From assembly GCF_000582535.1 (NCBI RefSeq), contig NZ_CP006932.1, forward strand, positions 570,001-602,000: a stretch of DNA of 32,000 nt. Reading direction: 5' to 3'. Positions 1,210-19,457 of this stretch are shown piece after piece. The position numbers were made by a program, and so were the translations under genes. Every line of letters starts with the position of its first letter. Position 1 is the stretch's first letter. A model generated the notes under the pieces. The model was not told where the DNA came from, made no database searches, and saw only the letters and a program-made list of their open reading frames with translations. The stretch comes from Candidatus Saccharimonadota bacterium. Lineage in GTDB: Bacteria; Bacillota_I; Bacilli_A; Mycoplasmatales; Hepatoplasmataceae.

Positions 1210-1421
1210 TGGATATATTTTGAAATATATTTTATCAAATTTTAATGTTTATATTCGCTTGTTGAATTATTTGATTTTTCTTTGAATCTAAAAATATTTT
1301 TTTAAAAGCAGGAGGAGTAATAATTTTATTAATTTTATTAGTATTATTTATTATAAGTATTTTAAATACATATTTTAATTTTGATATATTTAATTTAAGT
1401 TTAAATGCAAATTATAAATAA
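1209..1421 (+). CDS. possible small (70 aa) two-helix membrane protein, hypothetical
   Basis: ATG overlaps the fba stop (TAATG); open only under code 4 (4 in-frame TGA); two hydrophobic stretches (ILMFIFACWIIWFFF and GGVIILLILLVLFIISIL); TAA at 1419-1421. Confidence 0.3.
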
Positions 1422-1563
1422 ATAATTAAATTAGTAAAATTTTATAATGACAAAAAATAGAAAAATCAAAAATTTTCAAGAAAATAGAACAAAAATAGAA
1501 AAAATATAAATATATAAATTTATTATGAAAAGCAAAATACATACTAATTACTTCTATACTATA

Positions 1564-2075
1564 ATTTGAAGAAAATATTAAAATTACAAATAAAGTAAAA
1601 TCATTAATAAAAGATCAAGATATATCATTAGAAGAATAACTTGGAATGATTGAGGAGAAAGAAAATAATAGAAGAAGAAGTTGATCATTTTGCAAAAGTA
1701 AAAGATGCTATTAATATTTATTAATATTATAAATATTGATATGTTAGTTATTCTTGTGGTAATTATTAACGGTTTTTATGTAAAACAACCAAAAATAAAT
1801 ATCTTTTTAATTAAAGAAATGTATGATAAAACAAAAAACCAATAGTATTATATAGGAGAAAAAGAGTTCCTTTAAATCAAATTAATAAAACTTTAAAAAT
1901 AAGAAGAAGAAAAGCCAATTTTGATAGTGAATTTAAAAAAAATTGCGGAATTTTAGAATATATGTATAAAAATCCTGATGCTTTTGATCTAAGAAAAATC
2001 TTTCAAGAAGGAATAAATTAAACAAAAGAAGTTGCAAAATTAAAAATAAAACTTTACAAGCAGAAATAAGAATTA
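1564..2075 (+). pseudogene. decayed duplicate of the 3' half of fba (matches about 678-1200 of the intact gene)
   Basis: Hand alignment: the first ~64 nt are identical to 684-747 of fba, then progressive substitutions, small indels and in-frame TAA/TAG stops; colinear to the fba C-terminus (..YMYKNPDAFDLRKIFQEGIN..). Confidence 0.85.
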
Positions 2076-2191
2076 ATTTTTTTAATACTCTTTTTCAAGA
2101 AATTTTTATATCATTTTTAATTTAAGTATTATACAAATAGAATTATTAATTCAAAATTTAAATGAATTAAAAGATTAATTATAGAAAGATT

Positions 2192-2305
2192 TTATTTATT
2201 TTTTTTATTTTTTTTAGAATTTTTTTCTTTATTTGATTTATAAAATAGCATTGATAATGCAAAAATAAAACCAACTATACCTAATATTAAAAAAAATATT
2301 TCCAT
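2192..2305 (-). CDS. possible 37-aa single-pass membrane peptide (MEIFFLILGIVGFIFALSMLFYKSNKEKNSKKNKKNK)
   Basis: ATG 2303-2305 lies 27 nt downstream of the stop of the 638-aa gene on the same strand; hydrophobic helix plus Lys-rich tail; TAA at 2192-2194. A short ORF in AT-rich DNA, so weak. Confidence 0.25.
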   Translation of the reverse strand: MEIFFLILGIVGFIFALSMLFYKSNKEKNSKKNKKNK

Positions 2306-2331
2306 AACATAATTATAATTCAAAATATATT

Positions 2332-4248
2332 TTAATCATCATTATCTGGATTAGAATAATTAAAATTAAAAATCATATCAATTTTATTATTATAATAATT
2401 TCAAAAATGAACTCCTTTTTTTAATAATTTTAAAATTTCTTGTTTTTCATATTCAAAAACATTTTGATTAAAAATTTTTATATCTTCTGTTTTAGAAATT
2501 TTTAGATATATAAAATTTTTTTTTGAATTTAGAATTTCAAATAAGTTAGAAAAATAATTAAAATAATATATTCCTTTTTTATGAAATTCAAAAGCAATTG
2601 ATTTAATTGCATAGAAATTAGGCATAATTAATTTTAAAGAAGTATAATTAAATCCTTTTAAAGCTTCATTTTCTAATTCTTTTCCAGAATTAGAAATAGA
2701 ATTTGATTCATTTTTTATAGATTTATGATTTAAAAAAGTATCAATTTCATTTAGCGCAGAACTAGCAGCAAGTCCTGCTCATGCCCCGGCCCAAATTCCA
2801 TCTGTAAAAAAAGTTAATAAAGCACCCATTCCTAATCCAATTGTTGGAACTAAATAATCACCTTTACCATTTAAAGTAGAATTTTGTTTATATTTTAAAT
2901 ATTGATCTGTATTTTTTCATAATTGAAAATCTCTATTAATTTCAAGTCAATATCTTTTATCTTCAATTGAAGATAATAATTTTAAATTAATAGTTCAAGA
3001 AAAAGGACTAAAACTATAAAAATAATTTGCAATAATATTATCTTTTTTTAATTTTGGTAAATCTTTTTGAGAAAAAGATAATCCACTACCAAAATTTTCA
3101 TTTTGACCAGATATTTCAAATTGCTTAAAAGGATAAAAATTTAATATTTCTTCATCATTGTAATCTCAATTATCTCCAATATTTTTATTATTTTCAGAAT
3201 AATTAATTATAGAATCTGAATCCATAATTTTTAATTGTCCTATAATTTGTTTTTTATCCATATTATCATCATCATTTTTAAAGTTTTTTAATACTATTCC
3301 AAGAGCTTTACCACTATTTACATCTTCTACGAAACCTACATCTTCATTATTGAAAACCAATCCGCCATAAATATCAGATCATTCTCCAATATTTCCTAAA
3401 GGATAATTATCGACAACCGTAATATTTAATATTTCATTATCTGGTAAATTTCTAGCTCACTCATAAGATATTTTTCCAGATATTTCTGCAATTAAATTAC
3501 CTAATAAATCAAATATTTTCATTTTACTACCAATACTTGTAATAGGACTAAAAATTACATTATAAACCTTATCAATTTGTTGAATAGTATCATTTTCATT
3601 TCTTTTGCTTTTTTTGAAATGTAAAATATCTCCTGATTCTAAATTTTCAATATATTCTTTATTAATAAATATTAATAATCATTTTTGAATACCAAAACCG
3701 TCAGAAATATTTTGGCTTTGAGTAGAATTTAAAATATCATTGAAAAAATATTTTTCAATATCAAAATTATCAGATGGTTGATCATTTTGTAAAATTGAAT
3801 CATATAATAATTCATTATCAGAATTAAATTGTTTTTTAAAATTTATATGACATCTTTCAACTGAAAAATTTGTAAAAATATCAATTAATTTTGATAAATT
3901 ATAAGACTGTAATCAATTAATTTCTAATTCTAATTCTAATTCATTATCACTTATATAATTAATTTTAATTATATTTCAATAAGTTAAATTTTCTTGCAAT
4001 AAATTTTTTTTATTGAAAAAAGGATAATTTTTAACCTGAATTAAATCAATAATTTCAGAATTATTAAAAAAATAATCAAAATTAATTTCAGAATTATTAA
4101 TAATTAATTTAAAACTATTCCATTTCAAATCACTAATTAAAGTATCTGTAATTTGAAATGAATTTAAAGATTTTAGATAATTAGATATCCTCATTCTAAT
4201 TACCCTATTTTTTTGAATTTTTGTATTTTGAAATAATAAAATTTCCAT
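2332..4248 (-). CDS. hypothetical 638-aa protein with a glycine-zipper-like hydrophobic hairpin
   Basis: ORF-track pieces 3976..4248, 3166..3360 and 2401..2625 share one frame; I translated most of the gaps by hand (3601-3978 and 2623-3168) and found only TGA, no TAA/TAG; TAA stop at 2332-2334. Residues encoded at 2752-2850 read VPTIGLGMGALLTFFTDGIWAGAWAGLAASSAL, a local GC-rich patch. No enzymatic motif recognised. Confidence 0.7.
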
Positions 4249-4285
4249 CTAAATCTCCTAATTATTTTTAATTTAAAAAATAATA

Positions 4286-4305
4286 TTTAAATTATATAAT
4301 TTAAA
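4286..4305. promoter_or_regulatory. 20-bp perfect palindrome TTTAAATTATATAATTTAAA with back-to-back TATAAT boxes in the divergent intergenic region
   Basis: The sequence equals its own reverse complement; TATAAT at 4295-4300 (+) and its mirror at 4291-4296 (-); sits between the divergent starts at 4248 and 4369. Confidence 0.35.
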
Positions 4306-4368
4306 AAACAAACAATAAATTTATAAAAATAAGAATTAAAAAATAATTAAGAGAAGAAAATAAAAGAA

Positions 4369-6099
4369 ATGGAAAAAATAAAAGATTTTATTATACCTAA
4401 GGGTTATTCTATAGATTTAATTGTAAAAGAAGATGATCACGAATTAATTAATGCAGGAAAAATATTTATAAATGAATTAGAAAAAGAATATGAGAAATAT
4501 AAAGAAAATTTAAATAGAGAATATAAAAATATAGAAAAATATTTAAACAATAATTCAGTTTATTTTTCTAATGAAAAAATAGATAAAAAATCTCCCTTAA
4601 CAATTATCGATGCTCCTTGAGGAAGTGGTAAAACTTTTTTTATTGAATCATTAGCAAAACATATTATTGATAATAATATAAAAACAAATATTTTTAAAAA
4701 TATAATAATTTTAGATTCTTGAAAATATTCAAATTCTAAAAATATACCAGATGAAATAATATCTGAATTATTTTATATTCTTGCTATAAAATATGGAACT
4801 AAAGAAAATAATTTAAAAGAAAAACTTAAAAAATTTGGAAGACTTTTTTTCAACGCAACTGTTCTTTCATGAGCAAATAATTTTGGAAAATTGGATCTTG
4901 AAAAAATTAAACCAAAAGAAGAAAAGGAAATAAAAAATCTTTTATTAGATATATCAAACATTATTGAACCCACACTAATTGTATTTGATAACATTGAAAG
5001 AATTGGAAAATATTCTTGAGAAATACTTAAAGCAATTTTTAAAATATCTCAAATTGATAATTTTTGTTTTATTTTACCAATGAATACTAAAAAATTAAAA
5101 GAAAATGAATATGATGTTGATAACGAATATCCTATAGAAAAATATATCGATATTCCTTTTTTTAAATTTAAACAAGATTATTTATCATTTTTAAAAAAAT
5201 TTGGATTTAAAAACGAAGAAGCAAATTCAATTAATAAAATTTTAAATAAGGAAATAGAAGGACAAAAATTATCAATTAGAGAAGTAGAACAAAGATTTAA
5301 TAAAGAAAATATTAAAGAAATAGAAAATAAGTATGAAAAAATAAAAAAAATAGTAAATAAAATCTGAGGTTCAGTCGAGGAAGCAAAAAAATATTTATAT
5401 AATGATTTAGAAGAATTTTATTTAAAAATCATTGAATTAAAAAACAACTATGACGAATTCAAAAAAATAATTATAAAAAAATATTCAATTAAATATAGTA
5501 ATAATTATGAAAATGAAACAAATAATCTTAATTTATTAGTTGAAAAATTTTATAAATATGAATGAAGTTTTGATTATAAAGATTGATTTAATGATTTTAA
5601 TGAAGTATTAAAAGAATTAAAAGATTATGAAAAAAGAGATAAAAATAAAATTGAAAAATATGAAAAGGATATAAAAAATAAGAAAATTCAAATAGAAAAG
5701 ATCAAGGAAAACATATCTAATTTAATAAAATTAAACAAAGAAGAAGAACAAAAAGATTTAGAATTAATAAATTATGTAGAAATTGAAAATTTTAAAAATG
5801 CAATTAATAAGCATAATAAGGACATTTTCAATCTTAATAAAGAAATAAGAAATGATTCAATAAATATTGAAAATATCAAGAAAAAACTAATAAATTTAAA
5901 TTTTTATGATAATTTTAAAAATTTAAGTGATTTGTCCAAAAAATATAAAACTAATGAAAATAATTTATTTAAAAATGTTAACAAATATTTAATAAATATT
6001 TTTTTAGAGTTATTAGAAATAAAGGAAAATTTAAATTTATATGAAAAGAATATATTTATAAATAAAATATCAGAAAAAATTTTAAATATTAATTATTAG
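4369..6099 (+). CDS. KAP-family P-loop NTPase (576 aa) with a coiled-coil-like C-terminal half
   Basis: Walker A IIDAPWGSGKTFF (W is TGA 4618-4620) and Walker-B-like TLIVFDNIERIG match the KAP pattern GxWGxGK[ST] ... hhhhDDhDR; pieces 4369..4620 and 5080..5367 are in frame; hand translation is continuous to TAG 6097-6099. Confidence 0.8.
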
Positions 6100-6269
6100 A
6101 AATATTAAATATACTTCATTTATAATAAACAATTGCATTTTATCATTTACAAGATAATATTGAATTATTAAAAAAGATAAAATAAATGAAAAAAATAATA
6201 TTGAAGAAAAAATGATTATTTTAAAAAATAATATTAAATTTATTAATGATAATGTAAAAGGAAAATAAA

Positions 6270-7604
6270 ATGACTTTTTTAACACAAGAAAATCTTATAG
6301 TTATAAATGAAGAAATAAGATATAAATATGATTTGGAAATACCTCCTGTTTTCTTATATGGAAATTCAGATATAAAGGCTTTTATTAATTTAGGAGAATT
6401 ATTATCAAATGAATTTGATTTTGATAATAAAGAATTAAAAAAATTAAATGCAAAAAAATATTTTAAAATTTCAATTGAAGAATTAATAAATTCACCAGAA
6501 AATAAATCAGAACCAAAAGATTGAGGATTTGGATATTCAAAAGAATCTAAAAATGGAAAAGCATCGGGATCAGAAAGATCAAAAAAAATAAAACAATTTT
6601 TCCTTGAAAAACTAAATGCAAAAGAAAATTTAGAAGATAATTCTTTAATAAAATTAGAAAAAATTATTAATCCAGAAAAATTATCTGGTATTGGAGAAGA
6701 TTTAATAACAGATTTTGTTCTAATAACAAAGGAAAAAGAAATAAAAGAGTTTACAAAAATAATTTTTAATAAAATAGAAAAAGAAAAGGGATTAAAAGAA
6801 AATTTAATAATAAAATCACTACAAGAAAATTATAAAATAAATAACAATACAAATATTGATGCATTCCCTTTTTTAATTCCCATAAATATTGTTGATGAAT
6901 TTATTGGTAGTTTAGGAAAAGAATTTGAAAAAAGTATATTTAAAAAATTTATAAATAAAAATGATATTCATTTTGATTATAAAGAAGATGAAAAAGAAGC
7001 ATTTAAAACAAATTTTAGGTCATCTTTTTCAGAAAAAAGAAATGAATGATTAAATTTTAAAAAAATTAAGGCATCTGAGGAATTTTTAAAATTAAAAAAT
7101 GAAATTAAACAAATAAATTTTGACAAAAATTTTAACTTTTTATTAGAAAAGAAAAATTGAGAAATTAATTTATTTTTAAGCAATCGTGAAGTTTTAAGAA
7201 AAAATAATTTAAATAGAAATGTTTTAATTTTAAAAAAAGAAAATGGAGAAATTATAATAAAAAAATACTTTATAAGAAATGAAGAAATATTTCTTTTCAA
7301 TAGTAATTTAAATATTGAAAATTTAGCAATTAAAGAATTTAAAAGAGAAATTTTTAAAAGTAGTAAATATTCAAATTTTCCAATAAATATCGTAATTACA
7401 AGACAAAAATTTAATGAAAAAAATGAATTAAAAAATGTAAGCATTATGTATTTAAATACAAGACAAATTATTAGAAAAAACAATATTAAAAACGAAGATA
7501 GTTATATAAAAAAAACTATTAAAAATAAAGATAATTATAGAAAAAAATTTAGTAAATCTATAATAAATGGGAGTTAAATTTTAATAAAAGCTATAATAAA
7601 TAAT
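6270..7604 (+). CDS. hypothetical 444-aa protein (Lys/Asn/Glu-rich, no motif recognised)
   Basis: AAAGGA RBS before ATG 6270; ORF-track piece 6270..6524 continues through 3 TGA codons with no TAA/TAG (translated by hand) to TAA 7602-7604, 1 nt before the next ATG. Confidence 0.7.
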
Positions 7605-7605
7605 A

Positions 7606-8748
7606 ATGCAAACAAAAACAAATAACTATAAAAATGAATTACATTCAATTTGCACTTATTTAGCAATGTTTCCTCACAATATTCCGAATGAATATATAAA
7701 AAAATATACTAACAAAGGAGATACTGTATATGATCCCTTCTCTGGAAGAGGAACAACAATATTAGAATCATTACTTTTAGAAAGAAAAGCAATAGGAAAT
7801 GATTTAGCTCCTTTAGCTTATGTTTTAACAAAATCAAAAACAATTAATTATAGTTTAGATAAAATAATAAAAAGAGTAAATAAATTAAAAAATGAATATA
7901 TAAAATGAAGTAATATTAATAAAATAGATTTAGAACAAAAAGATTTTAAGGATGTTAAATATTTTTATAGTAAGTATAATTTAAATCAATTATTTTTCTT
8001 AAGAGAAAAAATAGGTAAAAATTATAGAAAATTAGATCAAATTGATAATTTTATTTTAGCAATTGCTTTAGGTTTAATGCACGGACAAATTAGAAAGGAT
8101 AATTCAACAATTTATTTTTCAATATCTATGCCCAATGGATATTCAATGTCTCCTAATTATGTAAAAAATTATAAAAATAAATATAATTTAATTCTTCCTA
8201 AAACTGATATTTTTGAGCAAATAATTAATAGAATAATAGTAAAACTTAAAAATAATAAAATAAATAATCTTAAATTTAAATCTAAAATATTTAATGAAGA
8301 TGCTTTAAAATCAAGTGAATTTATAAAAAACAAAAAACCAAAATTAATATTTACATCTCCTCCATATTTAAATGCAGTTAATTATGTAGAACAAAATTGA
8401 TTAAGATATTGATTATTAGGATTTAATAAAGAAGAAAATAAAAAAATAAAACTTGATGATAAACATAATAAAGAAAATTACAAAAATTTTTTAAAAAAAT
8501 TTTTAATTGAAATGAAAAAAATATTGGATCCTAACGGAACAATGATAATTGTAATTGGAGATTTAGAAAATAAAAAAATTCAAATTGATAAAATAATGAG
8601 AGAAATAATTTTGGATATAAAAAATTTAAAATTATTGGAAAGAATGAAAAAGGAAAAAAATAATTTAAAATTAAGTAGACAAATGGGAAAAGCAAAAGTA
8701 GGCAAATTAATAAATTATGATTGATATTTTATAATAGAAAGAATATAA
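7606..8748 (+). CDS. DNA methyltransferase, amino-MTase type (N6-adenine or N4-cytosine), alpha motif order
   Basis: Motif I VYDPFSGRGTT at about aa 40-50 and motif IV TSPPY at about aa 250; pieces 7606..7908, 8077..8400 and 8512..8724 are in one frame; TAA at 8746-8748. Confidence 0.85.
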
Positions 8749-8752
8749 AATT

Positions 8753-10873
8753 ATGGAACAAAAATATGTTTTTGAACAAGAAGAAAAATTAAATTTAAAG
8801 AATCTTAAATTATTACCAATTAATCCAAGATTTACATATTTCGGGAATGAAAAAGAAAATTTTTCAATAGAAAATATCTATAATGAAACCTTTAAGAAAG
8901 AAAACGAAATAGAAGTGCTAATGAAAATATTTTCTAGTGAAGAAAATTTAGAAGATTCTTATGAGTTATTCGAAAGCCTTATTGATAATGGATATGATAA
9001 ATATATTGATAGAATATGAGCAATAAAAACAAAATATAACAATTATTATGTTTTGGAAGGAAATAGAAGAACTTTATTTTTAAAAATTATTTTAAATATT
9101 AATAATTTAAGAAAAATATTTTTTAATCAAAAAGAAAAAATTTCCGAAAATATTTGCAAAAATATAGCAAATTTAGAAGAAAAAAATAAATGTATTAATA
9201 AAAATAAGAAATTTATTAAAAAAATAAATGAAAAAATAAATGAAAATGATCTAAAAAATAATGATTTATCAATTTATACATTCTTTAATAAATGCAAAGA
9301 AACAGATCTAAAAAATGACTGTTTTAATTTTGAAAAAACTAAAGATAAAATTTTAAAAAGATTGAGAAATAAACACATGATTCCCAATATAAAGGGTAAA
9401 AAAGATTGAAATAGATTATTAGTTTTAAAGAGCTATTTAGATATTTTCAAAAATTACGAAAATAAATATAATAATACAGAAAATATTATTAGAAAAATAT
9501 CAAAAGATTATCAAATTTCACTAAAAAAAATTGATAGAGATTTAAGATCCGCAAATTGAATTAATAAATTATTAAATTCTCTAAATAAGGAAAAAAGAAA
9601 TCAAATTATAGAAAATAAAAATTATAAAATATCTGCAATTGAAATTTCACCCTCTACTTTAAAAATATTAGGTAAAAATGGAAATAAAAAGACACTACAA
9701 AAGCAAATAAAATTAGAATATATTAAATATAATCCAATAATAAAAAATGGTAAATGAGAAGAGGTTGCTAATTTTTTATTTGAAAATTTTGAAAATGGAA
9801 ATTTTACAACAAGGGGATGAAAAAATGAAAAAGAACATTATAAATTATCAAATTTTTTTGGAGAAGAAGAATATAATTTAAAATTTTCGCATTTAAAATG
9901 AAAAGAAAAAAATAGAAAAAATGAATATATAGATGAAATTTTAGAAGCAGAAAATTCAATTTATAAAATCAAAAAAGAAAATGAAAAAAAAATAATTCCA
10001 GAAAAAAATAAATATATTTATAAATTTAAGAAAATAAATGGATTGGATAGATATAATAATGAATTAAAAAATATTTATTGTGCTTTGCAAAATTTTAAGA
10101 AAATAATAAATTGAGTAACTAAATACGAATTAAAATGATTGATAATACCTGACAGCAATATAATATTCTCAAATAATAAAAATGAAAAAATATTAAAACA
10201 TATAATTGGTGTATTTGGTGGATTAAGAATAATTTTTGATTATTTAAATACCTTTTTAACTAAAATTAGTGGATTAAAAAATAAAAACATTGAAGAAGAT
10301 CTTTTAAAAAAATTTAATTTCAAAAATTCAAAAATAAATTTTCTTAAAAATATTAAAAACTCAGAAGATAATTTTGAAAAATGATTAGATAATATTTTAA
10401 ATGATATAGATAATTATGATAAAAATCAAAAAATAAATTATTTAAATAAAAAAGAATTTCATAATGAAATTTTATCTTGATTAGTAGAAGAAGAAAAGAT
10501 AAAATCAAAAAATAAATTAAATATTAAAAAAGATCTATTAATTGAAGATAAAGAATTAAAAAATTATTATAATGAATTAGAAAAAATATGAATTGATATA
10601 AACAAAATAAATTATGAAGATAATGAGATGGAAGATAATGATTGAAATAAAAAACCTTTAAGAAATTATGTTTTGCATAATTTCTTACCAATTTTAAAAA
10701 GAATAGAAAATATTGATAATAGAAAATATTTTGAAAAAATAATAAATTTGGTAAGTAAATTTTTGGATAAATTAAGAATTATTATTGATTTTATAGAAGA
10801 AAATATTGAAAAAGAAATGGTTAATAAAAAAGAATATATATCAAAAATAAATCAAGAAAGTTTAATTTTATAG
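8753..10873 (+). CDS. 706-aa protein with an N-terminal ParB/Srx-like domain and a long helical Lys/Asn-rich C-terminal region
   Basis: N-terminus LKNLKLLPINPRF ... LFESLIDNGYDKYIDRIWAIKTKYNNYYVLEGNRRTLFLKII fits the ParB N-terminal pattern (..NPR.., ..SI...G.., h.[DE]G.[RH]R); the four ORF-track pieces (8753, 9053, 10139, 10673) share one frame and the gaps, translated by hand, contain only TGA; starts 4 nt after the MTase stop. Confidence 0.7.
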
Positions 10874-10928
10874 ATTATATTTTTTTAAAAATTAATAATA
10901 AAATTTAGTTATAATAAATTAATTAAAA

Positions 10929-11060
10929 TAATTAAAGAGATATCTGATAAAACAAAAAAATTACTAGTATTAAATAGAGAAACAGAAGCTAATTTAGATT
11001 AACTTATTAAAGGTATTCAATCATAAATAATAAAATCTAATTTTGATAATGAACTTATAA
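10929..11060 (+). pseudogene. short decayed internal fragment of fba (matches about 921-1050 of the intact gene)
   Basis: Hand alignment: ATAATTAAAGAGATATCTGATAAAACAAAAAAATTACTAGTATTA...CTAATTTTGATAATGAACTT versus fba TTAATTAAAGAGATATATGATAAAACAAAAAAACCACTAGTATTA...CTAATTTTGATAGCGAACTT; lies exactly between the two cassettes and overlaps the endonuclease stop codon. Confidence 0.7.
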
Positions 11061-12530
11061 AATTTTTTTATATCCGTACTTATTTTCAATAATTTCTTCA
11101 AGAAAATCTGAAATATCTGAACCTAAATTTTTTAGAGCAATTTTATTTATATCTGAAAAAGAAGCTAATTTATCTTTATTGGATAAACATTCTTTAGAAC
11201 AATATTGTGCTAAAATATTAGATGTTAAAGTGACAATTTTATATTTTTCAATATCTAAAAAATTAGAATTTGAAAATTTAGGAGAAATAACTAAACAATA
11301 TTTAGAATTATTTTTTTCAATATGTCTTTGTATTCGTGTTGATTGCAAATTATTATAAGATTTTCTGCTTTTTGCTTCAATATTAATTTTATTAACTTGA
11401 TCATTAAAATCTCTAAAAATAAAAATTAAATCAGTATCGCCTGATCCACTTATAATTTCAGTAGATATTTCTTCTCTAAATAATTTAAAAATTGGTTTTA
11501 AAGAATTTTCAAATTCTTTACCATCTAAAGAACCATATTTTGATTTTTCAGTCATATTATTTATTAAAGAAATTATTTCAATTTTTTCATTATATTCCGG
11601 AAATACTATTGCTAAATATTTTAATAATTCATTTTCATATAATTTTAATTTAAAATCTTCTAATCCAAAAGTATTTTTAGGGGAAATAGGTTCATTAAAT
11701 AAAGAATACTTACTTAATAATTCATGAGATATTTCTTTAAGATTTTTATTTAATTCAATATATCCTGAATAACTATCAATTTTATTATTTCTATAAGTAT
11801 TTGTTGATCCATGTTTAAACTTAAAAAAATTACCACTATTATGATATTTATCACCTTTTAAATTAATTACTCCAAATTGAGAAAATATTTTTAAAAAAAA
11901 ATATTTTGATTCATGCAAACAGTTAGCAAATAAATGATTGTAATCTTTTATTTGCTTAAATTTTTCTAATTTTTTTTCAAATGGTAATTTTCTAAAATCT
12001 AATATATCATTAACCAATTTTTCATAAGTTATCTTATTTATTTTTTTAATAAAAGGTAAAAATCATATAAACTCATCAATAAAAATTTTATATTCCAAAG
12101 AATCATTTAACATTAATTTAATAATTAATCGTCCAACAAATATTGAAAAATGTTCATTAACTTTACTATATGGTGCTGGAAATTGAATAGAAAATAAATT
12201 AACTAACATATTTTTTCTTATAAAATTTTCATCTTCATTTTTCTTGTTTAAAATATTTCAAGTTGTCTGAGTAGGAATAAAAAAATTGCTATTATTTTTT
12301 TTATAACCAAACATATAAAAAAACATTTGACTCAATCTAATTCCAATAGTATTCTCTGAACCATTTTCACTCCGACCTTTATAAATATTTTTTTCTTTTA
12401 AATCATATTTTAAATATTTTTTATTCAAAACGTTATTATTTTCTTTAATTGATTTTAAAAAAAGTACTATTTGCTTTTCTGAACTTATATTCTTTTGAAA
12501 AACTCATCTATCTTTAAATTTTCTTTCCAT
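11055..12530 (-). CDS. putative type II restriction endonuclease (491 aa) with a PD-(D/E)xK-like core
   Basis: ORF-track piece 11055..12017 extends in frame through 3 TGA codons to ATG 12528-12530 (hand translation: MERKFKDRWVFQKNISSEKQ...); candidate catalytic signature SGSGDTDLIFIF-x12-INIEAKSRK; immediately downstream of two C5-MTases on the same strand. Confidence 0.6.
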
Positions 12531-12550
12531 TTTATAAAAATAAATTAAAT

Positions 12551-13606
12551 TTATTTTTTAATTCCTTTAATAATTTCTTTTAAAAATTTAGGAGGAATTG
12601 CTTCTCCTATAATATTTCTAATAAAAGTATCTGTACATCAATTTGGTAAATCTAAATCTGGAGGTAGTGAACTAATTATAAATAATTCTCTTAATGTTAA
12701 AACACGAGCATCAGAATATGTACCATCTGAAAGTAATCGACCAGGATGTACATTATTATGACCTCCTATATTACCCGAATTCATTGTTCTTGCTGGAGAA
12801 GGTTTATTTCAATGCATTCTTTTATAAGTATTATGAAATCCTTTAATTGCTTCCCCGTTAATTTTTTTGGGATAATAAAAATCGTTTTTTAAAGCAGACT
12901 TACCAGTTGAAGTATGCTTCATAGCTAATATATCTCTATCATTATGTTTTTTTGCATAATGTCACTTAATATTTGATGATTCACCAGATTCTAGACTTGG
13001 CAAAAATCCTATTGCTTCTTTAAGATTTATTTCTTTTGATTCACTATGATTAAATCAATTAAGATTTTTTTTTCACATTTTTATAAATGCTCTTGATCTG
13101 TTTTGTGAAACGCCATAATTACAAGAATTTAAAATAAATTTTTTTATATTATATATATCTCCAAATTCCTGAATTAAAATGCTAAATATTGTATAAAAAT
13201 TATTATTATAAGGAAACAAAAAATTTAAAAATTTTGGAACATTTTCTATAATTATATAGTCAAATTTATTATTTTTTATAATTTCAATTACATAAAAAAT
13301 TAAATAATTTCTTTCATCATTTTCATAATCTTTTTTGCCCAAAGTACTCATTCCTTGACAAGGAGGAGTAGCAATTAAAAATTTGCAATTATTATTTTTT
13401 ATCTCAAAATTTATTTGATCTAATATTTCTTTTTTAGTAATATCGCCAATAATCATTTTTGTTTTTGGATAAAAAAAAGTATACAATTTAGCTCTTGAGA
13501 AAATTAATTCATTCGCTATTTTAATATCTATATTAACATCTTTTAAATACATCTCTCCTATACCAGCACCAGAAAACAAAGAAATACCATTTATCTTATT
13601 TGTCAT
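12551..13606 (-). CDS. DNA (cytosine-5)-methyltransferase, copy 1 (351 aa)
   Basis: Motif [40 protein letters not shown], then after TGA read-through [24 protein letters not shown] and motif X GEAIPP; TAA at 12551-12553. Confidence 0.9.
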
Positions 13607-14678
13607 TATATTTTATCCCTTTTAAAATTTTATTTATTAATAATGGAGGAACAGATTCTCCTATCATATTTCGTATCTGAATATCAGAAACAAATTTTGG
13701 GACATTTAAATTGGGATCTAAACTACTTAAAATAAATAGTTCTCTTAAAGTTAAAACACGTGCATCAGAGTATGTGCCATCTGAAAGTAATCGGCCAGGA
13801 TGAACATTACTTTGAGATGAAATACAATCATTTCTCATAGTAATAGTTGGAGAAGGTTTATTCCAATTAATTCTTTTATATGTGGCCATATAACCTTTTA
13901 ATTTTTCTCCTGTTTTTTTATTTTTAGGATAATAAAATTTGTTATCAAAAGCAGATTTTCCAGTAGGAGTATGTTTCATAATTTCAATATGAGATGCTAT
14001 ATGATTCCGAGCATTGTGATTTTTAATGTTTGATTTTTGTCCGGATTCCAAACTAGGAAGATTAGATATAGAATCTCATACTGTTATTATTTTTTCTGAT
14101 TTAGGATCAATTCATCGAAATTTTTTTTTTCACATTCTTATTATTGCTCTTTCTCTATGCTGAGGAACACCAAAATTTTTTGCATTAAATATATCAAATT
14201 CAATATTGTATTCCTTTTTATATTTATTAATAATTATTTCTTTAATTCCTAATAATTCATTATTTATAATGAATTTTATCTTAAAAAATCTAGAAACATT
14301 TTCTATCAAAACAAAGGAAGGTTTTAATTTATCAATTATTTCAAAAGTATCAAATATTAAATAATTTCTCTTATCTGCGATCATCTGATCATTTGACTTA
14401 TTTTTCCCTATTAAACTTATTCCTTGACAAGGAGGAGTGGCAAATATAAAATCAATTTTCTTTTTAATTGATTCATTAATAATTTTATTTTTAATATTTT
14501 CATCTGTTATATCCCCACATATTGTTTTGGTATTTGGATGTCAATATTCATGCACTTTATTTCTTATTGGAATTAATTCATTCGACAAAATAATTTTTAC
14601 TTTTGTATTTTTAAAGCCAAACTCAGCTATTCCAGCACCAGAAAACAATGATAAGGCATTAATTTTAACTAAATTCAT
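13596..14678 (-). CDS. DNA (cytosine-5)-methyltransferase, copy 2 (360 aa)
   Basis: ATG 14676-14678; motif [65 protein letters not shown], motif X GESVPP; pieces 14130..14384 and 13596..14051 are in frame; 11-nt overlap with the start of copy 1. Confidence 0.9.
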
Positions 14679-14713
14679 TGAGTTTATTCCTATTTAAATA
14701 AAAAAAATATTTA

Positions 14714-14767
14714 AATTTAATGTTTAAATTATATCTAATAATTATTTCTAATTTAATGTTTAAATTA
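14714..14767 (-). promoter_or_regulatory. two copies of an 18-bp element AATTTAATGTTTAAATTA (each a 7-3-7 inverted repeat) bracketing a candidate promoter of the R-M operon
   Basis: Identical copies at 14714-14731 and 14750-14767; on the minus strand, TTAAAT (14751-14756), a 17-nt spacer, then TATAAT (14728-14733), 50 nt upstream of the MTase ATG. Confidence 0.4.
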
Positions 14768-14799
14768 AAAAAATAATTACATTCTATTTAGACTTATTT

Positions 14800-15320
14800 A
14801 GATATATTTCAACTTATATACAATTAATATATTAATATTTACAAAAAAGAGATATATTATATGATCTTTTCTTCGGAAAAGAAATAACATTTTTGGAATA
14901 ATATTATTAAAAATAGAAGTTTATGGAAATTATTTATCTTCATCGATTCATTTATTAATTAAATCAAAAAAAATATTAATAATTTTATTTTAGCTATTTC
15001 ATTAGAATTAATTAATGGAAAAGTAAGAAAAATGAATTATCACTTTATTTTTCTGTTCCTATAGCTAATGGATATTAAACATCTCCGAATTATGTTAAAA
15101 AATTAACTTAACTTTTAATTTTTCGATTTATTTAAAGTTTGTTAATTATATAAAACAAAACTGAATAAGATATTTATTATTAAAATTCAACAATAAAGAA
15201 AATAAAAATATAAAACCGAATAATAAACATAGAACAGAAAATTATAAAATATTTCTAAAAAATTTTTGATTAAAAAGAAAAAAATGAATATTTTATACTT
15301 AAAGAAAATAGAGGAATATT
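14800..15320 (+). pseudogene. heavily decayed, internally deleted paralogue of the 7606-8748 DNA methyltransferase
   Basis: Colinear nucleotide matches to the motif I region (TATGATCTTTTCTTCGGAAAAGAAATAACA vs TATGATCCCTTCTCTGGAAGAGGAACAACA), the middle (AATTTTATTTTAGC..; ..AATGGATATT.AA..TCTCC.AATTATGT.AAAAAATTA) and the 3' part (..AAAAATTTTT.ATT.AAA.GAAAAAAAT.); many stops and frameshifts; boundaries approximate. Confidence 0.65.
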
Positions 15321-15583
15321 ATCTTTAAAATTACTTTAAAAATAATAATTTTAAATAAAATTTATGATATTTTAAATTAATTTAATAAGTAATTTTAATA
15401 TTAAATCTAAAATAAATTCATTATAAAAACAATTTTGTTAAAATTACATTTTTCTTTAATCTATAGATATCTTAAATTATTTATATTTAAATTTACAATA
15501 TTTAATTATAATTTATAAATTAATAATTAAATTTTAATTTTCTAAAATATTAATAATATTTTATTTTATTAGATATTAAATTA

Positions 15584-16195
15584 TTATAGTAAATCTAAAG
15601 TTTCTTTAATAGATTCAAAATAAATTGATAAAGTTTCTTTTTGATTTAAATAATTATTTTCAAAATTACTACATTTTTTATTTAAAAATACTTCTCTTAA
15701 CTTATTTCAATCATTACCCTTAATTTCTTTTATTTTATTATTAGAATTTTTAACTAATTCTCATCTTATATTATTAGATTCTTTCCCACGCAAAATTTCT
15801 TTCATGTTTTCTTTATTTGTTCTTATTAAAGCAATATCAAAATGTTTTCTATTATTTTGATCTCTAGAAGAAATTGTAATAACAGATGTTGATAATTTAA
15901 CATTATATTTATATCCTAGATATTTCTTAAATAATTTTTGTACAAATAATTTAAGTTCTGATGTATCAATTTTATTAAATATTGGTGAATCTAAAAGTAA
16001 TTGATAATCAACATCATAAATTCCATTTTTTCTTTGAACAACAAGATTTCTTCTTGCTGATCCTACAATTGCATGATTAAAAGATTTTCCATATTTTGCT
16101 TTAATTTCTTCTTTAATTTTAGGAATTGTATCTTCTAATTCAATTTTATATTCTTTAATTTCTTTTTTACTAACATATCTACATTTCTCATTCAT
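15584..16195 (-). CDS. Pol-beta-superfamily nucleotidyltransferase (203 aa; MNT/SMODS-like)
   Basis: Signature IVGSARRNLVVQRKNGIYDVDYQLLL (hG[GS]-x(n)-DhDh) plus a downstream HFDIALIR (third acidic residue); ORF-track piece 15761..16195 continues through 2 TGA codons to TAA 15584-15586 (translated codon by codon). Confidence 0.6.
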
Positions 16196-16246
16196 AATTA
16201 ATTAATTTAATTCCCCTTTATTTTTAATAATTATAATAATATTATA

Positions 16247-16840
16247 ATGAATCAAATTATTGAAAGAAAAATAAAATTTTTAAAACAAGAATTCTCAAAA
16301 AATAATTATGTATTATTAAAAGATGATATAAAAGATTTAAAAATTCAATTAGAAAGAAAACCTGTACAATTATACAATTTAGCAATAAAATTTTTATTAA
16401 AAAATAATGAGAAAATAAATTATGAAAATATTTCTAAAATCATAATTATTGATATAAGAATACGAGACAATCTTAAAAAAATAATAACTTCCTTAGAAGA
16501 ATATATAAGGGTAAAATATATAGATTTTAAAAAAATAGAATTTAATAATAATTTAATTAAAAAAATTTATACAGAAAATTTAGCAAAAATGATCCAAGAA
16601 TTAAAGGTAGATGAATACAACATAATAAGAGAAATAAGAAATAAAGTAAATCATATTGTTTACCCAATAATATTTGAAGAATTTAAAAATATTTTTAATA
16701 ATTTAATTAAAATAAGAAATTTAGATTTTATTAATAAAAATACTTTTGATAAATATCTAAGATCAATTTTAAATACTAATTACAATATAAATATTAATTT
16801 TATAAATAATTCTTTTAAAAAATTAAAAAATTATATTTAA
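16247..16840 (+). CDS. HEPN-domain protein (197 aa; AbiD/AbiF (Abi_2)-like)
   Basis: R-x4-H motif in IIREIRNKVNHIVYP within a predicted all-helical protein; divergent from the nucleotidyltransferase with a 51-nt gap. Confidence 0.55.
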   Translation: MNQIIERKIKFLKQEFSKNNYVLLKDDIKDLKIQLERKPVQLYNLAIKFLLKNNEKINYENISKIIIIDIRIRDNLKKIITSLEEYIRVKYIDFKKIEFNNNLIKKIYTENLAKMIQELKVDEYNIIREIRNKVNHIVYPIIFEEFKNIFNNLIKIRNLDFINKNTFDKYLRSILNTNYNININFINNSFKKLKNYI

Positions 16841-16886
16841 TCATAAATCTAAAGCAATTTCTATATAATCTAAAAAAGGGATTATT

Positions 16887-18569
16887 ATGGAAAATTTCAT
16901 TGTAAATAAAGGTTACTCAATAAAATTAATAGTAAAAGAAGATGACGAAAAATTAATTGATACAAGTAATGAATTTATTTTAGAATTAGAAAAAGAATAT
17001 TTTAAATATAAAAATAAATTAAAAGAAGAACAAGATAAATTTGAAAAATATAATAACAATAAACATGTTTATTTTTCGCAAGAAAAATTATTAAAAAAAT
17101 CTCCTATTGCAATCATAAATGCTCCTTGAGGTAGTGGAAAAACATATTTTATTGAACAATTTGCAAAAAACTTTATCGATCAAAGAATAGATATTAAAAA
17201 CTTTAAAAATATCATCATTCTTGATATTTTTAAATTTTCTAATTCTAAAAATATTCCTGATGAAATAATGGCTGAATTATTTTTTATTCTTACAAAAATA
17301 TATGATCAAGATAATAAAAATGATTTACTTAATAAATTACATAAATTTGCAATAAAATTTTTTAATGCAACAGTAATTGCTTGAATAAATTATTTTGGTA
17401 AATTTAATTTTGAAAAATTTAAAATTAAAGATCTAAATGAAACAGAAATTATTGTAAATGAAATATCTAAAAGTATTGAACCTACTTTAATAATATTTGA
17501 TAATATTGAAAGAATTGGAAAATATTCTTGAGAGATTTTAAAAGCAATCTTTAAAATCTCACAAATTGATAATTTTTGTTTTATATTACCGATGAATATA
17601 AATAGATTAAATGGAAATGAAAATAAAAAAAATGATGAATATCCAATTGAAAAATATATTGATCTACCAATATTTGAATTTAAACAAGATTATCTTTCTT
17701 TTTTAAAAAATAATGGAGTAGATCAAAAAGAAGCAGTAATTATAAATAATATTTTAAATACAGAAATAGATGGACAAAAATTATCAATAAGAGAAGTAGA
17801 ACAAAGATTCAATAAAAATGATATTTTTAAGGAAAATAATAAATATTTAAAATTAGATAAAATTGTAAAAAATGTATGAGGTTCAGTAACCGAAGCCAAA
17901 AAATACTTAAATGATGAAATTAAAAAATATATTGAAAATCTAAATCAATTAGAAGCAATTTTTAATCAAATAAAATTAAATATTAAAGAAAGAAAATATC
18001 AAAATATTAATTTCGATCAAGATACTAAAAATTATATTAATCAAATTAATAATAATTCTTGAAATCTTAAACATAATTATGAAGAATGAATAATTATGTT
18101 TGATAAAATTTTAAAAGATATTAAAGAATATTTAAATAAATTTGATCTTAAAAAAATTGAATTAATTACAGTAAAAGAAAAATTAAATTCTAATTATTCA
18201 ATTATAAATAATAATTTAAGAATCTTAAATTTAAAATTAGAAAAAGAAATGAGTCTTGAAGATAAAGATAATTTAAAAATTAATCAATTACAAATTGAAA
18301 TTGAAAAGAAAATTAATAATATTGAAATAATCAAAAATCAAATAAATTTAATTAATCAAAAAATATATAATATTGAAGAAGGATACAAAGATCTAGATTA
18401 TAAGAATTTAGAAAAAAGTATTCAAGATTATAAAGAAAAAATAAAAAGTATAAATCAGGATACTGATTTATACTTAATAAATAAATATTATATGTGGGAC
18501 AGAAAATTTGATTATTCACGAGATAATTCAAATTATATTGATTACTTTATTGATTGTTTATTTAGTTAA
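16887..18569 (+). CDS. KAP-family P-loop NTPase, second paralogue (560 aa)
   Basis: Walker A IINAPWGSGKTYF (W is TGA 17127-17129), TLIIFDNIERIG; colinear with 4369-6099 over the NTPase domain; pieces 16887, 17592 and 18096 are in one frame; TAA at 18567-18569. Confidence 0.8.
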
Positions 18570-18742
18570 GTTTATTTATAAAAAATTAACATAATATCTG
18601 TATTTAATAAATTTATAAATAAATACATAATATAAAGTTATCATATCTTTTTAAATTTAAAATAAATAAAAGATATGATTGATAATTTGATAATAATTTA
18701 TCAAGTGTAATAATTAAATATTTATATAAAAGAGGTTAATAA

Positions 18743-19066: not shown

Positions 19067-19079
19067 ATCTTCTTTTTTT
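19056..19079 (+). terminator. rho-independent terminator
   Basis: AAGAAGA-ATAAA-TCTTCTT hairpin followed by a T run; overlaps the stop codon at 19064-19066. Confidence 0.5.
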
Positions 19080-19444: not shown

Positions 19445-19457
19445 TTTCTGTTTTTTT
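19425..19457. terminator. bidirectional rho-independent terminator between convergent genes
   Basis: A run, ACAGAAA-TTAA-TTTCTGT hairpin, T run; lies between the + gene stop (19442-19444) and the ychF stop (19456-19458). Confidence 0.6.

What the first reader, a model, noticed from the sequence alone, without database searches (positions are those of the whole stretch)
1564..18569. About 17 kb composite defence-type island between core genes fba and ychF, without any visible mobility gene
Seen: the interval contains, back to back, a KAP-NTPase/MTase/ParB-like cassette, a complete R-M operon, an MTase pseudogene, an NTase/HEPN pair and a second KAP NTPase. There are pseudogene scars at the junctions, and I found no integrase, transposase or IS ends. 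Established: defence genes cluster in islands, and unknown genes embedded in them are enriched for new defence functions. Inference: the unannotated proteins here (638 aa, 444 aa, the C-terminal 600 aa of the ParB-like protein, the KAP C-termini) are prime candidates for undescribed immunity components.
Basis: partly seen in the sequence, partly recalled or inferred. Interest (0 to 1): 0.6.

Follow-up and report, generated by a model that had tools for sequence, protein, structure and literature searches.

The report
Integrase-free defence hotspot in Hepatoplasma
Next to the aldolase gene of a tiny isopod-gut mycoplasma lies a strain-variable stack of anti-phage genes with no mobility gene, and it includes two gene pairs not yet described as defence systems (a DNA methylase with a ParB-like partner, and a nucleotidyltransferase with a HEPN-motif partner).

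Summary
The window is Candidatus Hepatoplasma crinochetorum Av (genetic code 4). Between fba and ychF lie KAP NTPase 1, an orphan 435-aa gene, an N6/N4 methylase with a ParB-like 706-aa gene, a restriction enzyme with two m5C methylases, a methylase pseudogene, a nucleotidyltransferase/HEPN-motif pair, and KAP NTPase 2. There are two fba pseudo-copies and no recombinase.

Three other Hepatoplasma genomes refine the picture. A near-identical strain (96-97% nt in the flanks) carries a different 7.2-kb cargo in place of window 1210-16771. That 15.6-kb stretch is therefore the accessory part. KAP2, g15 and ychF sit at this locus in all four genomes and g16 in three, so this block is fixed.

Two leads came out of the unknowns:
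- The ParB-like protein belongs to a rare family with no Pfam or PDB relative. It sits beside a DNA methylase in 9 of 9 loci, from two methylase families. I read it as the restriction-type effector of a two-gene module.
- The nucleotidyltransferase/HEPN-motif pair is a conserved divergent pair in four loci, all in defence neighbourhoods. I read it as a HepT/MntA-like variant.

The 638-aa protein has a C-terminal domain like a phage tail protein and is probably not an immunity gene. The 435-aa protein stays unknown. Interest is moderate.

The parts
352..1209 (+). fba (class II fructose-bisphosphate aldolase). This is the left conserved flank, and the left breakpoint of the variable segment lies at its stop codon.
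   Evidence: Pfam 2.5e-88. It is 86-89% aa identical in sister genomes. Window 1-1210 is 95.7% nt identical to strain L018, and homology ends there.
1197..1421 (+). g02, a 74-aa hydrophobic ORF of uncertain reality, in the 340-nt spacer between fba and its pseudo-copy.
   Evidence: Table-4 ORF call. No family hit. No homologue in the other three genomes.
1552..2051 (+). fba pseudo-copy 2 (fba aa 106-274), with stops and frameshifts.
   Evidence: tblastn and repeat finder. It is 85.9% nt identical to Av fba, 80.3% to L004 fba and 75.2% to L001 fba.
2073..2175 (+). Remnant of the 131-aa gene that directly follows fba in sister genome L004.
   Evidence: blastn: L004 4933-5036 matches window 2073-2175 at 81.7%, colinear with pseudo-copy 2.
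2332..4248 (-). g04, 638 aa, with a Gly/Ala-rich hydrophobic segment and a C-terminal domain related to the g21/g22 phage-tail-like family. Av-specific among the four Hepatoplasma genomes.
   Evidence: No Pfam, PADLOC, NCBIfam or PHROG hit. Homologue of 766 aa in L007 (24% identity, E 4e-33). HHalign against the g21/g22 family: 73%, E 3e-5.
4369..6099 (+). g05, KAP P-loop NTPase 1 (576 aa), with Walker A APWGSGKT and a variable coiled-coil C-terminus.
   Evidence: PF07693 3.3e-13. 55% identical to g14 over about 430 aa. Present in L004 (54%), absent from strain L018.
6270..7577 (+). g06, 435 aa, unknown (X271_00544).
   Evidence: No hit in the four libraries or the PDB. One 65% homologue on a 2-kb contig, and a precomputed PF28123 tag that is not in the local Pfam copy. 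L004 has an M+R pair in its place.
7606..8748 (+). g07, N6-adenine/N4-cytosine DNA methylase (380 aa, motifs DPFSGRGTT and TSPPY). It is the modification half of the g07-g08 module.
   Evidence: PF01555 4.8e-21, PADLOC MTase_II 1.2e-38. 85% identical in L004. Homologues at 39-51% identity sit next to g08 relatives in six other loci.
8753..10873 (+). g08, 706 aa. It has a ParB/Srx-type N-terminal domain, a conserved middle domain and a helical C-terminal domain with invariant R492, N638 and H642. I propose it is the effector half of the module.
   Evidence: Methylase adjacency in 9 of 9 loci.
10929..11062 (+). fba pseudo-copy 3 (aa 191-235), at the junction between the g07-g08 block and the R-M operon.
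   Evidence: 80.6% nt identical to Av fba, 70.9% to L004 and L001 fba.
11055..12530 (-). g09, Type II restriction endonuclease (491 aa).
   Evidence: PADLOC REase_II PDLC03533, 4.2e-39, residues 7-472 against profile 4-465/473.
12551..13606 (-). g10, m5C DNA methylase (351 aa).
   Evidence: PF00145 1.3e-48, PADLOC PDLC03384 1.4e-120.
13596..14678 (-). g11, second m5C DNA methylase (360 aa, 51% identical to g10).
   Evidence: PF00145 7.4e-52, PDLC03384 3.1e-117.
14990..15284 (+). Pseudogene of a g07-type methylase.
   Evidence: tblastn code 4: g07 aa 151-305 at 48-56% identity in broken frames, 74-79% nt.
15584..16195 (-). g12, 203-aa Pol-beta-type nucleotidyltransferase (GS-X14-DVD).
   Evidence: PADLOC CBASS 'Cyclase' core 8.2e-9; all four family members hit a PADLOC 'Cyclase' model (3 PDLC00795, 1 PDLC00824). 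Conserved partner of g13.
16247..16840 (+). g13, 197-aa all-alpha protein with invariant R131-N-x-x-N-H136-x-x-Y139. Transcribed divergently from g12.
   Evidence: Family alignment. AF2 pLDDT 90. No Pfam, PADLOC or PDB relative.
16887..18569 (+). g14, KAP P-loop NTPase 2 (560 aa). It is the right conserved flank, and the right breakpoint lies about 116 nt upstream of its start.
   Evidence: PF07693 5.8e-12. Orthologues at 97% (L018), 66% (L004) and 65% (L001). Weak PADLOC mad8 hit, 1.4e-5.
18743..19066 (+). g15, a 107-aa HNH paralogue that lacks the catalytic His and has a Cys-rich insert. Conserved next to KAP2.
   Evidence: Alignment with intact HNH neighbours of KAP genes in L001 and L018. 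One of those hits Pfam HNH/HNH_5. 69% orthologue in L001 and 98% in L018; L004 has a 110-aa gene at the same position.
19196..19444 (+). g16, an 82-aa coiled-coil (DUF16-like) protein. Conserved in Av, L018 and L004.
   Evidence: Pfam DUF16 1.1e-4, below the family cut-off. 79-86% orthologues. A paralogous fragment lies at 20683-20871.
19456..20556 (-). ychF, the right core gene.
   Evidence: Pfam. 74-99% aa identical in the other genomes.

Best explanation
The fba-ychF interval of Ca. Hepatoplasma crinochetorum Av is a chromosomal defence hotspot with no recombinase.

A fixed frame surrounds it. On the left is fba. On the right is the block KAP2, inactivated-HNH g15, g16 and ychF.

Inside the frame is a replaceable 15.6-kb cargo (window 1210-16771) made of independent immunity modules:
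1. KAP NTPase 1, a P-loop switch fused to a variable C-terminal effector region.
2. g07-g08. The methylase marks host DNA. The ParB/Srx-domain protein, which I infer to be nucleotide-gated, carries a C-terminal R...N...H domain and acts on unmarked DNA. This is inferred.
3. A restriction enzyme with two m5C methylases, the layout typical of asymmetric-site (Type IIS) systems.
4. A divergent nucleotidyltransferase/HEPN-motif pair that I infer works like HepT/MntA. The transferase keeps an RNase toxin nucleotidylated until infection.

Cargo is exchanged among Hepatoplasma lineages by host recombination anchored in the conserved flanks. Occasional one-sided (illegitimate) joins add DNA instead of replacing it. 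That leaves truncated fba copies and a redundant methylase pseudogene, and the modules stack up.

Shown: gene identities, strain-level replacement, breakpoints, scars and the conserved gene pairings. Inferred: every biochemical activity, and the recombination route.
For: Gene identities.

Accessory status:
- Strain L018 shares 95.7% nt (window 1-1210) and 96.8% nt (16771-22763) but has 7.2 kb of other cargo. That cargo is three small ORFs, GmrSD, an m5C methylase, a 62%-identical g12'/g13' pair and an intact HNH.
- L004 keeps KAP1, g07-g08 and KAP2. It has a different M+R pair and an AriA/PtuA/GajA-like ATPase in place of g06 and of g09-g13.
- L001 has only the KAP genes, HNH genes and a secreted RCC1-repeat protein.

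No mobility gene.

Native composition: GC3 is 4-13% throughout.

Scars: both fba copies point the same way as fba and are closest to Av's own fba. Copy 2 runs on into the remnant of the gene that follows fba in L004. The g07-type pseudogene sits in the R-M segment.

g07-g08:
- A methylase is adjacent in 9 of 9 loci. Eight are g07 homologues (39-85% identical) and one is a Dam-type D12 methylase.
- The partner is only 26-28% identical where the methylase is 46-51% identical.
- Known defence genes lie within 8 kb in L005, L007 and L010.

g12-g13: the same divergent pair occurs in L018, L015 and L016/17, next to GmrSD, Abi_2, Shedu and R-M genes. The motifs are invariant.

KAP defence precedent: PMC13552941.
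Against: - No activity was measured for any gene.
- g08 has no recognisable nuclease fold. Its C-terminal half modelled poorly (pLDDT 30-70), and only weak ParB/Srx-fold matches were found.
- g13 has the motif but no HEPN profile or fold match. The motif spacings differ from HepT/MntA, and the genes are divergent rather than in an operon.
- The fixed KAP2-g15 block might not be defensive at all.
- The recombination route is reconstructed from scars in a single genome. L018 and L004 show no fba copies.
- The hotspot also holds non-defence cargo: g04, which is tail-like, and an RCC1-repeat secreted protein in L001.
- Only four genomes were available. The metagenome scans found no more.
Confidence: 0.68

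Rival explanations
1. The interval is the decayed remnant of one or more integrated mobile elements (prophage, ICE or integrative island) that targeted the 3' end of fba and carried a replacement fba end. The recombinase genes have since been lost.
For: Two truncated fba 3' copies in the orientation of fba resemble stacked attL/attR duplications. g04 has a phage-tail-like C-terminal domain. Phage-tail-like genes g20-g23 lie just beyond ychF.
Against: - No recombinase, replication, conjugation or capsid gene, nor a fragment of one, in four genomes.
- The fba copies are 134-500 nt long and 81-86% identical, far longer than typical att cores, and are closest to the host's own fba.
- Copy 2 lies only 340 nt from fba, so no element fits between them.
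- The g20-g23 block is syntenic in all four genomes, so it is not a recent insertion.
- GC3 is uniform.
Confidence: 0.12
2. g08 is not a restriction-type effector. It is a DNA-binding helper or regulator of an orphan methylase, loading or spreading the methylase on DNA as in the ParB-methylase fusions of phages and plasmids. The g07-g08 pair would then be an epigenetic or anti-restriction module.
For: - The only profile hit of g08 is to the N-terminus of the PADLOC model PD-Lambda-5_A (7.4e-5); the top HHsearch hit reported for PD-lambda-5 is 'methyltransferase'.
- g07 is 85% identical between Av and L004, about as conserved as core genes.
- No nuclease fold was detected in g08.
Against: - A helper would be expected to co-evolve with one methylase family, but one relative is paired with a Dam-type D12 enzyme.
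- The partner diverges much faster than the methylase (26-28% against 46-51%), as restriction enzymes do.
- Several loci sit in defence clusters.
- No relative was found in IMG/VR viral contigs.
- The invariant R492, N638 and H642 in the C-terminal domain argue for catalysis.
Confidence: 0.25
3. g12-g13 is a minimal cyclic-nucleotide signalling system (CBASS-like). g12 would make a nucleotide second messenger on infection, and this would activate g13 as the effector.
For: All four g12 family members match one of two PADLOC CBASS cyclase models over the catalytic core. The pair is embedded in defence clusters.
Against: - g12 is 203-218 aa, whereas the best-matching cyclase profile is 340 positions long and only positions 33-159 align.
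- g13 is an all-alpha protein with no recognised family or fold match that could identify a nucleotide-sensing domain.
- The genes are divergent, not in an operon.
- The motif pair GS...DxD plus Rx4H..Y fits the transferase/HEPN toxin-antitoxin logic better.
Confidence: 0.15

Closest known systems
Core-gene-flanked defence islands and hotspots without mobility genes, as described for E. coli, Pseudomonas and Acinetobacter pangenomes
   Same: Several unrelated immunity modules are packed between conserved genes. Different strains carry different cargo at the same site. Unknown genes are embedded among known ones.
   Different: It sits in a roughly 0.65-Mb code-4 mollicute symbiont. One flank is itself a defence-type gene (KAP2). 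Truncated copies of the flanking core gene record how the cargo was stacked.
GmrSD / BrxU / SspE (ParB-like DUF262 NTPase fused to a DUF1524 His-Me nuclease)
   Same: g08 has the same logic: an N-terminal ParB/Srx-type domain followed by a long effector region, encoded in defence neighbourhoods. Like SspE, it is genetically tied to a DNA-modification gene.
   Different: There is no detectable homology (HHalign 0.7%). The motif is EGNRR rather than DGQQR. The C-terminal domain has R...N-x3-H rather than a DUF1524 signature. It is always paired with a base methylase, whereas GmrSD is a stand-alone modification-dependent enzyme.
HepT/MntA (HEPN/MNT) type VII toxin-antitoxin modules (PMC7641770)
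   Same: A small Pol-beta nucleotidyltransferase with GS...DxD sits next to a helical protein carrying Rx4H followed by an invariant Tyr.
   Different: The spacings are GSX14DXD and RX4HXXY, not GSX10DXD and RX4HXY. The proteins are about 200 aa each. The genes are divergently transcribed. No HEPN or MNT Pfam hit.
KAP P-loop NTPase anti-phage proteins (EF_KAP class, PMC13552941; PifA of plasmid F)
   Same: An N-terminal KAP NTPase is followed by a C-terminal region of about 200 aa with no known domain, which differs between paralogues.
   Different: No obvious transmembrane helices. There are two paralogues per locus. KAP2 is fixed in the genus and always has HNH-family small genes beside it.
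Type IIS restriction-modification systems with two m5C methylases (HgaI-type; the HgaI comparison is from memory only)
   Same: One restriction enzyme of about 490 aa plus two tandem m5C methylases of about 355 aa, all on one strand.
   Different: The specificity is unknown. The HgaI link was not tested, because no REBASE was available.

Membership tests
Defence island / hotspot | Several recognised defence genes clustered together | tested here: met
   A restriction enzyme, four methylase genes including one pseudogene, and two KAP NTPases by HMM.
Defence island / hotspot | Variable content between related genomes at a conserved position | tested here: met
   L018, L004 and L001 carry different cargo between fba and ychF. 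L018 is 96-97% nt identical in the flanks.
Mobile genomic island (integrative element) | Integrase, transposase or relaxase, and short flanking att repeats | tested here: not met
   No such family in any ORF. The only long direct repeats are paralogous genes and fba copies.
Type II restriction-modification system (g09-g11) | A restriction enzyme and cognate methylase(s), intact and adjacent | tested here: met
   Full-length REase_II hit at 4.2e-39. Two full-length PF00145 hits. No internal stops under code 4.
Type II restriction-modification system (g09-g11) | Sequence-specific cleavage blocked by the methylation | not testable with these tools
   Needs a methylome and enzyme assays.
ParB/Srx superfamily (g08 N-terminus) | ParB box motifs (NPxxPR-type and GxxRR) and the ParB/Srx fold | tested here: inconclusive
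   NPR and EGNRR are invariant in 17 sequences. PADLOC hit at 7.4e-5 to the N-terminus of PD-Lambda-5_A. UniRef name. Foldseek finds only weak matches to SbnI, sulfiredoxin and Atu1540, prob 0.18-0.35. No Pfam ParBc hit.
GmrSD / DUF262-DUF1524 (g08) | Homology to GmrSD_N and GmrSD_C | tested here: not met
   HHalign of the g08 family against three GmrSD proteins: 0.7%. No Pfam hit.
Two-gene R-M-like module (g07-g08) | Obligate genomic linkage of the effector to a DNA methylase across lineages | tested here: met
   9 of 9 loci. Eight have g07-type methylases and one has D12.
Two-gene R-M-like module (g07-g08) | The effector has nuclease activity that is restrained by the methylation | not testable with these tools
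   No nuclease fold was recognised. The C-terminal model has low confidence.
HepT/MntA (HEPN/MNT) toxin-antitoxin | GSX10DXD in the transferase and RX4HXY in the toxin (PMC7641770) | tested here: not met
   g12 has GS-X14-DVD and g13 has R-X4-H-X-X-Y. Both are invariant in their families but differ in spacing.
HepT/MntA (HEPN/MNT) toxin-antitoxin | HEPN and MNT domain membership by profile or fold | tested here: not met
   No Pfam, PADLOC or NCBIfam HEPN or MNT hit. The Foldseek search of a pLDDT-90 model found nothing significant.
HepT/MntA (HEPN/MNT) toxin-antitoxin | Conserved adjacency of the two genes | tested here: met
   The same divergent pair occurs in Av, L018, L015 and L016/17.
CBASS (g12-g13) | A full-length CD-NTase plus an effector with a nucleotide-sensing domain, in an operon | tested here: not met
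   Only the catalytic core (profile positions 33-159 of 340) matches. g13 is all-alpha. The genes are divergent.
KAP NTPase anti-phage proteins | A KAP P-loop domain with a Walker A motif, plus a C-terminal region of unknown function | tested here: met
   PF07693 at 3e-13 and 6e-12. APWGSGKT is present. The C-terminal roughly 200 aa have no hit and differ between paralogues.
KAP NTPase anti-phage proteins | Walker-B-dependent protection from phage | not testable with these tools
   Experimental. The precedent is in PMC13552941.

The most novel reading that the evidence does not exclude
g07-g08 would be a previously undescribed kind of restriction-modification-like immunity, confined so far to code-4 mollicutes. 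A base methylase marks self DNA. A ParB/Srx-domain protein, which may load on DNA or be gated by a nucleotide as ParB-family proteins are, delivers a new C-terminal catalytic domain (invariant R...N-x3-H, possibly HEPN-like) to unmarked nucleic acid. In addition, the divergent g12-g13 pair would be a new branch of nucleotidyltransferase/HEPN toxin-antitoxin defence.
Probability: 0.35. Interest if true: 0.7.

Novelty: new variant of a known kind. Interest (0 to 1): 0.5.

Why it matters
- Hepatoplasma has one of the smallest genomes of any free-replicating symbiont. Even so, about 2.5% of it is a swappable immunity stack. That makes it a compact natural example of how a defence hotspot turns over with no mobile-element machinery, and the fba scars record the recombination history.
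- The embedded ParB-like/methylase pair and the nucleotidyltransferase/HEPN-motif pair are concrete, small, testable candidates for new defence modules. They recur in other mollicute defence clusters and are missing from the PADLOC (2023), Pfam and PDB libraries searched here.
- If g08 is an effector, it adds a third ParB-domain immunity architecture beside GmrSD/BrxU and SspE.

Tried and rejected
- Table-11 ORF calling shatters the genes, so I replaced it with my own table-4 calls.
I reached the same proteins through ids returned by the homology searches.
- PDB sequence searches found nothing for g08, g09, g13, g06 and the g04, g08, g12 and g21/22 family profiles; g12 alone gave only a marginal hit to SIRV1 ORF119 (E 0.025).
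- The idea that g08 is a divergent GmrSD was rejected.
- A small HMM of g21/g22 did not detect g04. Only profile-profile comparison gave a moderate C-terminal match, so that link is tentative.
- A MADS-like reading (KAP2 hits mad8 at 1.4e-5; the L004 ATPase hits mad3) was not pursued. The hits cover only P-loop regions, and no other mad component was recognised.
- The idea that g06 is the restriction enzyme for g07 was rejected. The g07-g08 pair occurs without any g06 relative elsewhere, and L004 has an unrelated M+R pair at that position.
- The HgaI identity of g09-g11 could not be tested. A plasmid tblastn found nothing, and GACGC counts in 32 kb are uninformative.
- Scans of JGI metagenomes and IMG/VR for more g08-family or KAP2 loci found none.
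- GC and codon comparison shows no foreign signal.

Full report
**Identity and gene calls.** The window has 14-29% GC. Under table 11 it yields only fragments. With TGA read as Trp it resolves into long genes. A homology search returned a 100% match for the 706-aa protein to X271_00546 of Candidatus Hepatoplasma crinochetorum Av, whose genome is 657 kb. The closest species-representative genome found is Ca. H. scabrum (YchF 74% identical).

**Checking the observation.**
- fba (352-1209) and ychF (19456-20556) are unambiguous.
- Between them lie two KAP P-loop NTPases, g05 and g14 (PF07693 at 3e-13 and 6e-12).
- There is an N6/N4 methylase, g07, and a restriction enzyme, g09 (PADLOC REase_II, 4e-39 over its full length).
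- There are two tandem m5C methylases, g10 and g11, and a nucleotidyltransferase, g12 (CBASS cyclase core, 8e-9).
- tblastn under code 4 and the repeat finder show a g07-type methylase pseudogene at 14990-15284.
- They also show two truncated fba copies, at 1552-2051 (aa 106-274) and 10929-11062 (aa 191-235).
- No called ORF hits an integrase, transposase, relaxase or phage replication family in Pfam, NCBIfam or PHROGs. The two larger non-coding stretches are partly accounted for by the pseudogenes.

**Is it accessory?** Three other Hepatoplasma genomes were recovered.

L018 is a Logan contig from SRR17180998 and is nearly conspecific. It is 95.7% nt identical over window 1-1210 and 96.8% over 16771-22763, and its YchF is 98.9% identical. 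Between those points it carries a different 7.2 kb: three small ORFs, a GmrSD Type IV enzyme, an m5C methylase, a 62%-identical g12'/g13' pair and an intact small HNH. The replaceable segment is therefore 1210-16771. Its breakpoints lie at the fba stop codon and about 116 nt upstream of KAP2.

L004 (GCA_001179805.1; Fba 89%, YchF 87%) keeps KAP1, g07 (85%), g08 (64.5%), KAP2 and g16. It has a small M+R pair where Av has g06. It has an AriA/PtuA/GajA-like ATPase where Av has the R-M operon and g12-g13.

H. scabrum (L001) has only two KAP genes, three HNH-family small genes and a secreted RCC1-repeat protein.

KAP2 and g15 are thus present in all four genomes, and g16 in Av, L018 and L004. The rest is cargo. 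GC3 is 4-13% in island and core genes alike, so donors share the host's composition or the genes are long resident.

**The scars.** Both fba copies point the same way as fba, and both are closer to Av's own fba (85.9% and 80.6%) than to the fba of the other species. Copy 2 is colinear with the L004 arrangement, running on into a remnant (2073-2175) of the 131-aa gene that follows fba there. Copy 3 sits exactly where the block shared with L004 (g07-g08) meets the Av-specific R-M segment. That segment also carries a dead g07-type methylase.

I read this as stacking of alternative versions of the same locus. Incoming homologous DNA was anchored on one side and joined illegitimately on the other, so it added to the resident cargo instead of replacing it, and the redundant genes then decayed. 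This is inference from one genome.

**The ParB-like protein.** g08 has no Pfam, NCBIfam, PHROG or PDB relative. A full HMMER scan of 1.84 billion representative proteins found only 24 relatives, mostly about 600 aa long.
- The alignment shows invariant NPR and EGNRR (ParB boxes), then G-K..W.R, TTRGW, R492 and a C-terminal N638-x3-H642.
- No family member has a recognisable ParB, nuclease or methylase-partner Pfam domain; three members each gave one weak, unrelated hit.
- An AlphaFold model is good for residues 1-370 and poor beyond.
- Foldseek gives only weak ParB/Srx-fold matches.
- Profile comparison with GmrSD is negative.

The informative result is gene context. In all nine independent loci the gene abuts a DNA methylase. 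Eight are g07 homologues at 39-85% identity, found in either gene order and once convergent. One is a Dam-type D12 enzyme. Several loci sit among AbiEii, GmrSD, ThsB-TIR or Shedu genes. The partner diverges much faster than the methylase (26-28% against 46-51%). This is the pattern of a restriction component, so I propose a two-gene R-M-like module. The main rival is that g08 helps or regulates the methylase.

**The nucleotidyltransferase/HEPN-motif pair.** g13 has five homologues, none with a Pfam domain. In the three loci examined (L018, L015 and L016/L017), each homologue is preceded by a divergently transcribed g12 homologue at 46-62% identity. The neighbours include GmrSD, methylases, Abi_2, Shedu and Res/Mod genes.
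- g13 carries invariant R-N-x-x-N-H-x-x-Y. It models confidently as all-alpha (pLDDT 90) but has no significant PDB neighbour.
- g12 carries GS-X14-DVD and matches CBASS cyclase cores.

The closest known logic is HepT/MntA, whose motifs are GSX10DXD and RX4HXY (PMC7641770). The spacings and the gene orientation differ, and no HEPN or MNT profile matches. It therefore resembles that family in how it may work but fails the membership tests.

**The other unknowns.**
- g04 has a 766-aa homologue near a g07-g08 pair in L007. Its C-terminal roughly 100 aa match the g21/g22 family at HHalign 73%. That family in turn hits PHROG 2248 'tail protein' and the tail proteins of small Clostridium phages. It is probably phage-derived or surface-related, not an immunity gene.
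- g06 has one 65% homologue and nothing else.
- The KAP C-termini differ between paralogues. KAP2's C-terminal tail is conserved among its orthologues. A 2026 study shows that KAP NTPases fused to unknown C-terminal regions protect against phage in a Walker-B-dependent way (PMC13552941).
- g15, always beside KAP2, is an HNH paralogue that has lost the catalytic His. Intact HNH genes flank the KAP genes in L001 and L018.

**Verdict.** The finding is real and is a true accessory defence hotspot with no mobility genes, once the boundaries are corrected. As an island it is an ordinary kind of thing in an unusual, minimal genome. Its value lies in the clear strain-level replacement, the recombination scars, and two recurrent gene pairs absent from the libraries searched here, of which g07-g08 is the stronger lead.

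Noticed in passing
window 22641-29652 (g20-g23): This is a block of large paralogous proteins conserved in the same order in the other Hepatoplasma genomes wherever the sequence recovered reaches that far. g21 and g22 are 54% identical. The C-terminal 140 aa of g22 recur as g23. Residues 472-588 of g22 hit PHROG 2248 'tail protein', and residues 502-647 are about 30% identical to the tail protein of small Clostridium perfringens phages of about 18-19 kb (CPS1, phi24R). It looks like domesticated phage tail proteins in a symbiont.
   Followed up: partly
window 29836-31078: A cluster of 14 tRNA genes on the minus strand, which is the only stretch of about 50% GC in the window. Its tRNA sequences are also matched at the corresponding end of the H. 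scabrum locus (L001 ~600-1480).
   Followed up: no
window 19196-19444 and 20683-20871: The coiled-coil gene g16 (DUF16-like) has a paralogous fragment on the other side of ychF (76% nt over 141 nt), so ychF is bracketed by direct repeats. L004 has a 102-aa paralogue at the second position.
   Followed up: no
L004 2741-3665 (upstream of fba in GCA_001179805.1): A ThsB-like TIR protein (PADLOC ThsB, 5.5e-7) and a multi-pass membrane protein (Pfam 8xMP) lie on the other side of fba. The defence-rich zone may therefore extend to both sides of fba in that genome. The window starts too close to fba to check this in Av.
   Followed up: no
L015 764-6576 (ENA ERZ25067893, 1.18-Mb contig): In a distantly related genome (its Fba is only 34% identical), a methylase, GmrSD and the g12'-g13' pair lie immediately upstream of a class II aldolase gene. 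Defence cargo sits next to an aldolase gene again, which may be coincidence or a shared hotspot.
   Followed up: no
L001 13643-15028, L007 1-1640 and 11139-13091: Secreted RCC1/WD40-like repeat proteins occur inside or next to the same variable regions in H. scabrum and in the L007 organism. The hotspot therefore also carries probable host-interaction genes.
   Followed up: no
L001 17581-18543 and 19644-20708; L004 1495-2547; L018 1651-2730; window 20894-21862: The multi-pass membrane protein g18 has paralogues flanking fba in the other genomes. g18 lies between fba and the KAP genes in H. scabrum but beyond ychF in Av, which indicates rearrangements around the hotspot.
   Followed up: no
L005 10206-12926: In one locus the methylase/g08-like pair is followed by a 906-aa ResIII/DEAD helicase, a layout reminiscent of Type III Mod-Res with the ParB-like gene inserted. 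I did not check whether the helicase is functionally linked.
   Followed up: no
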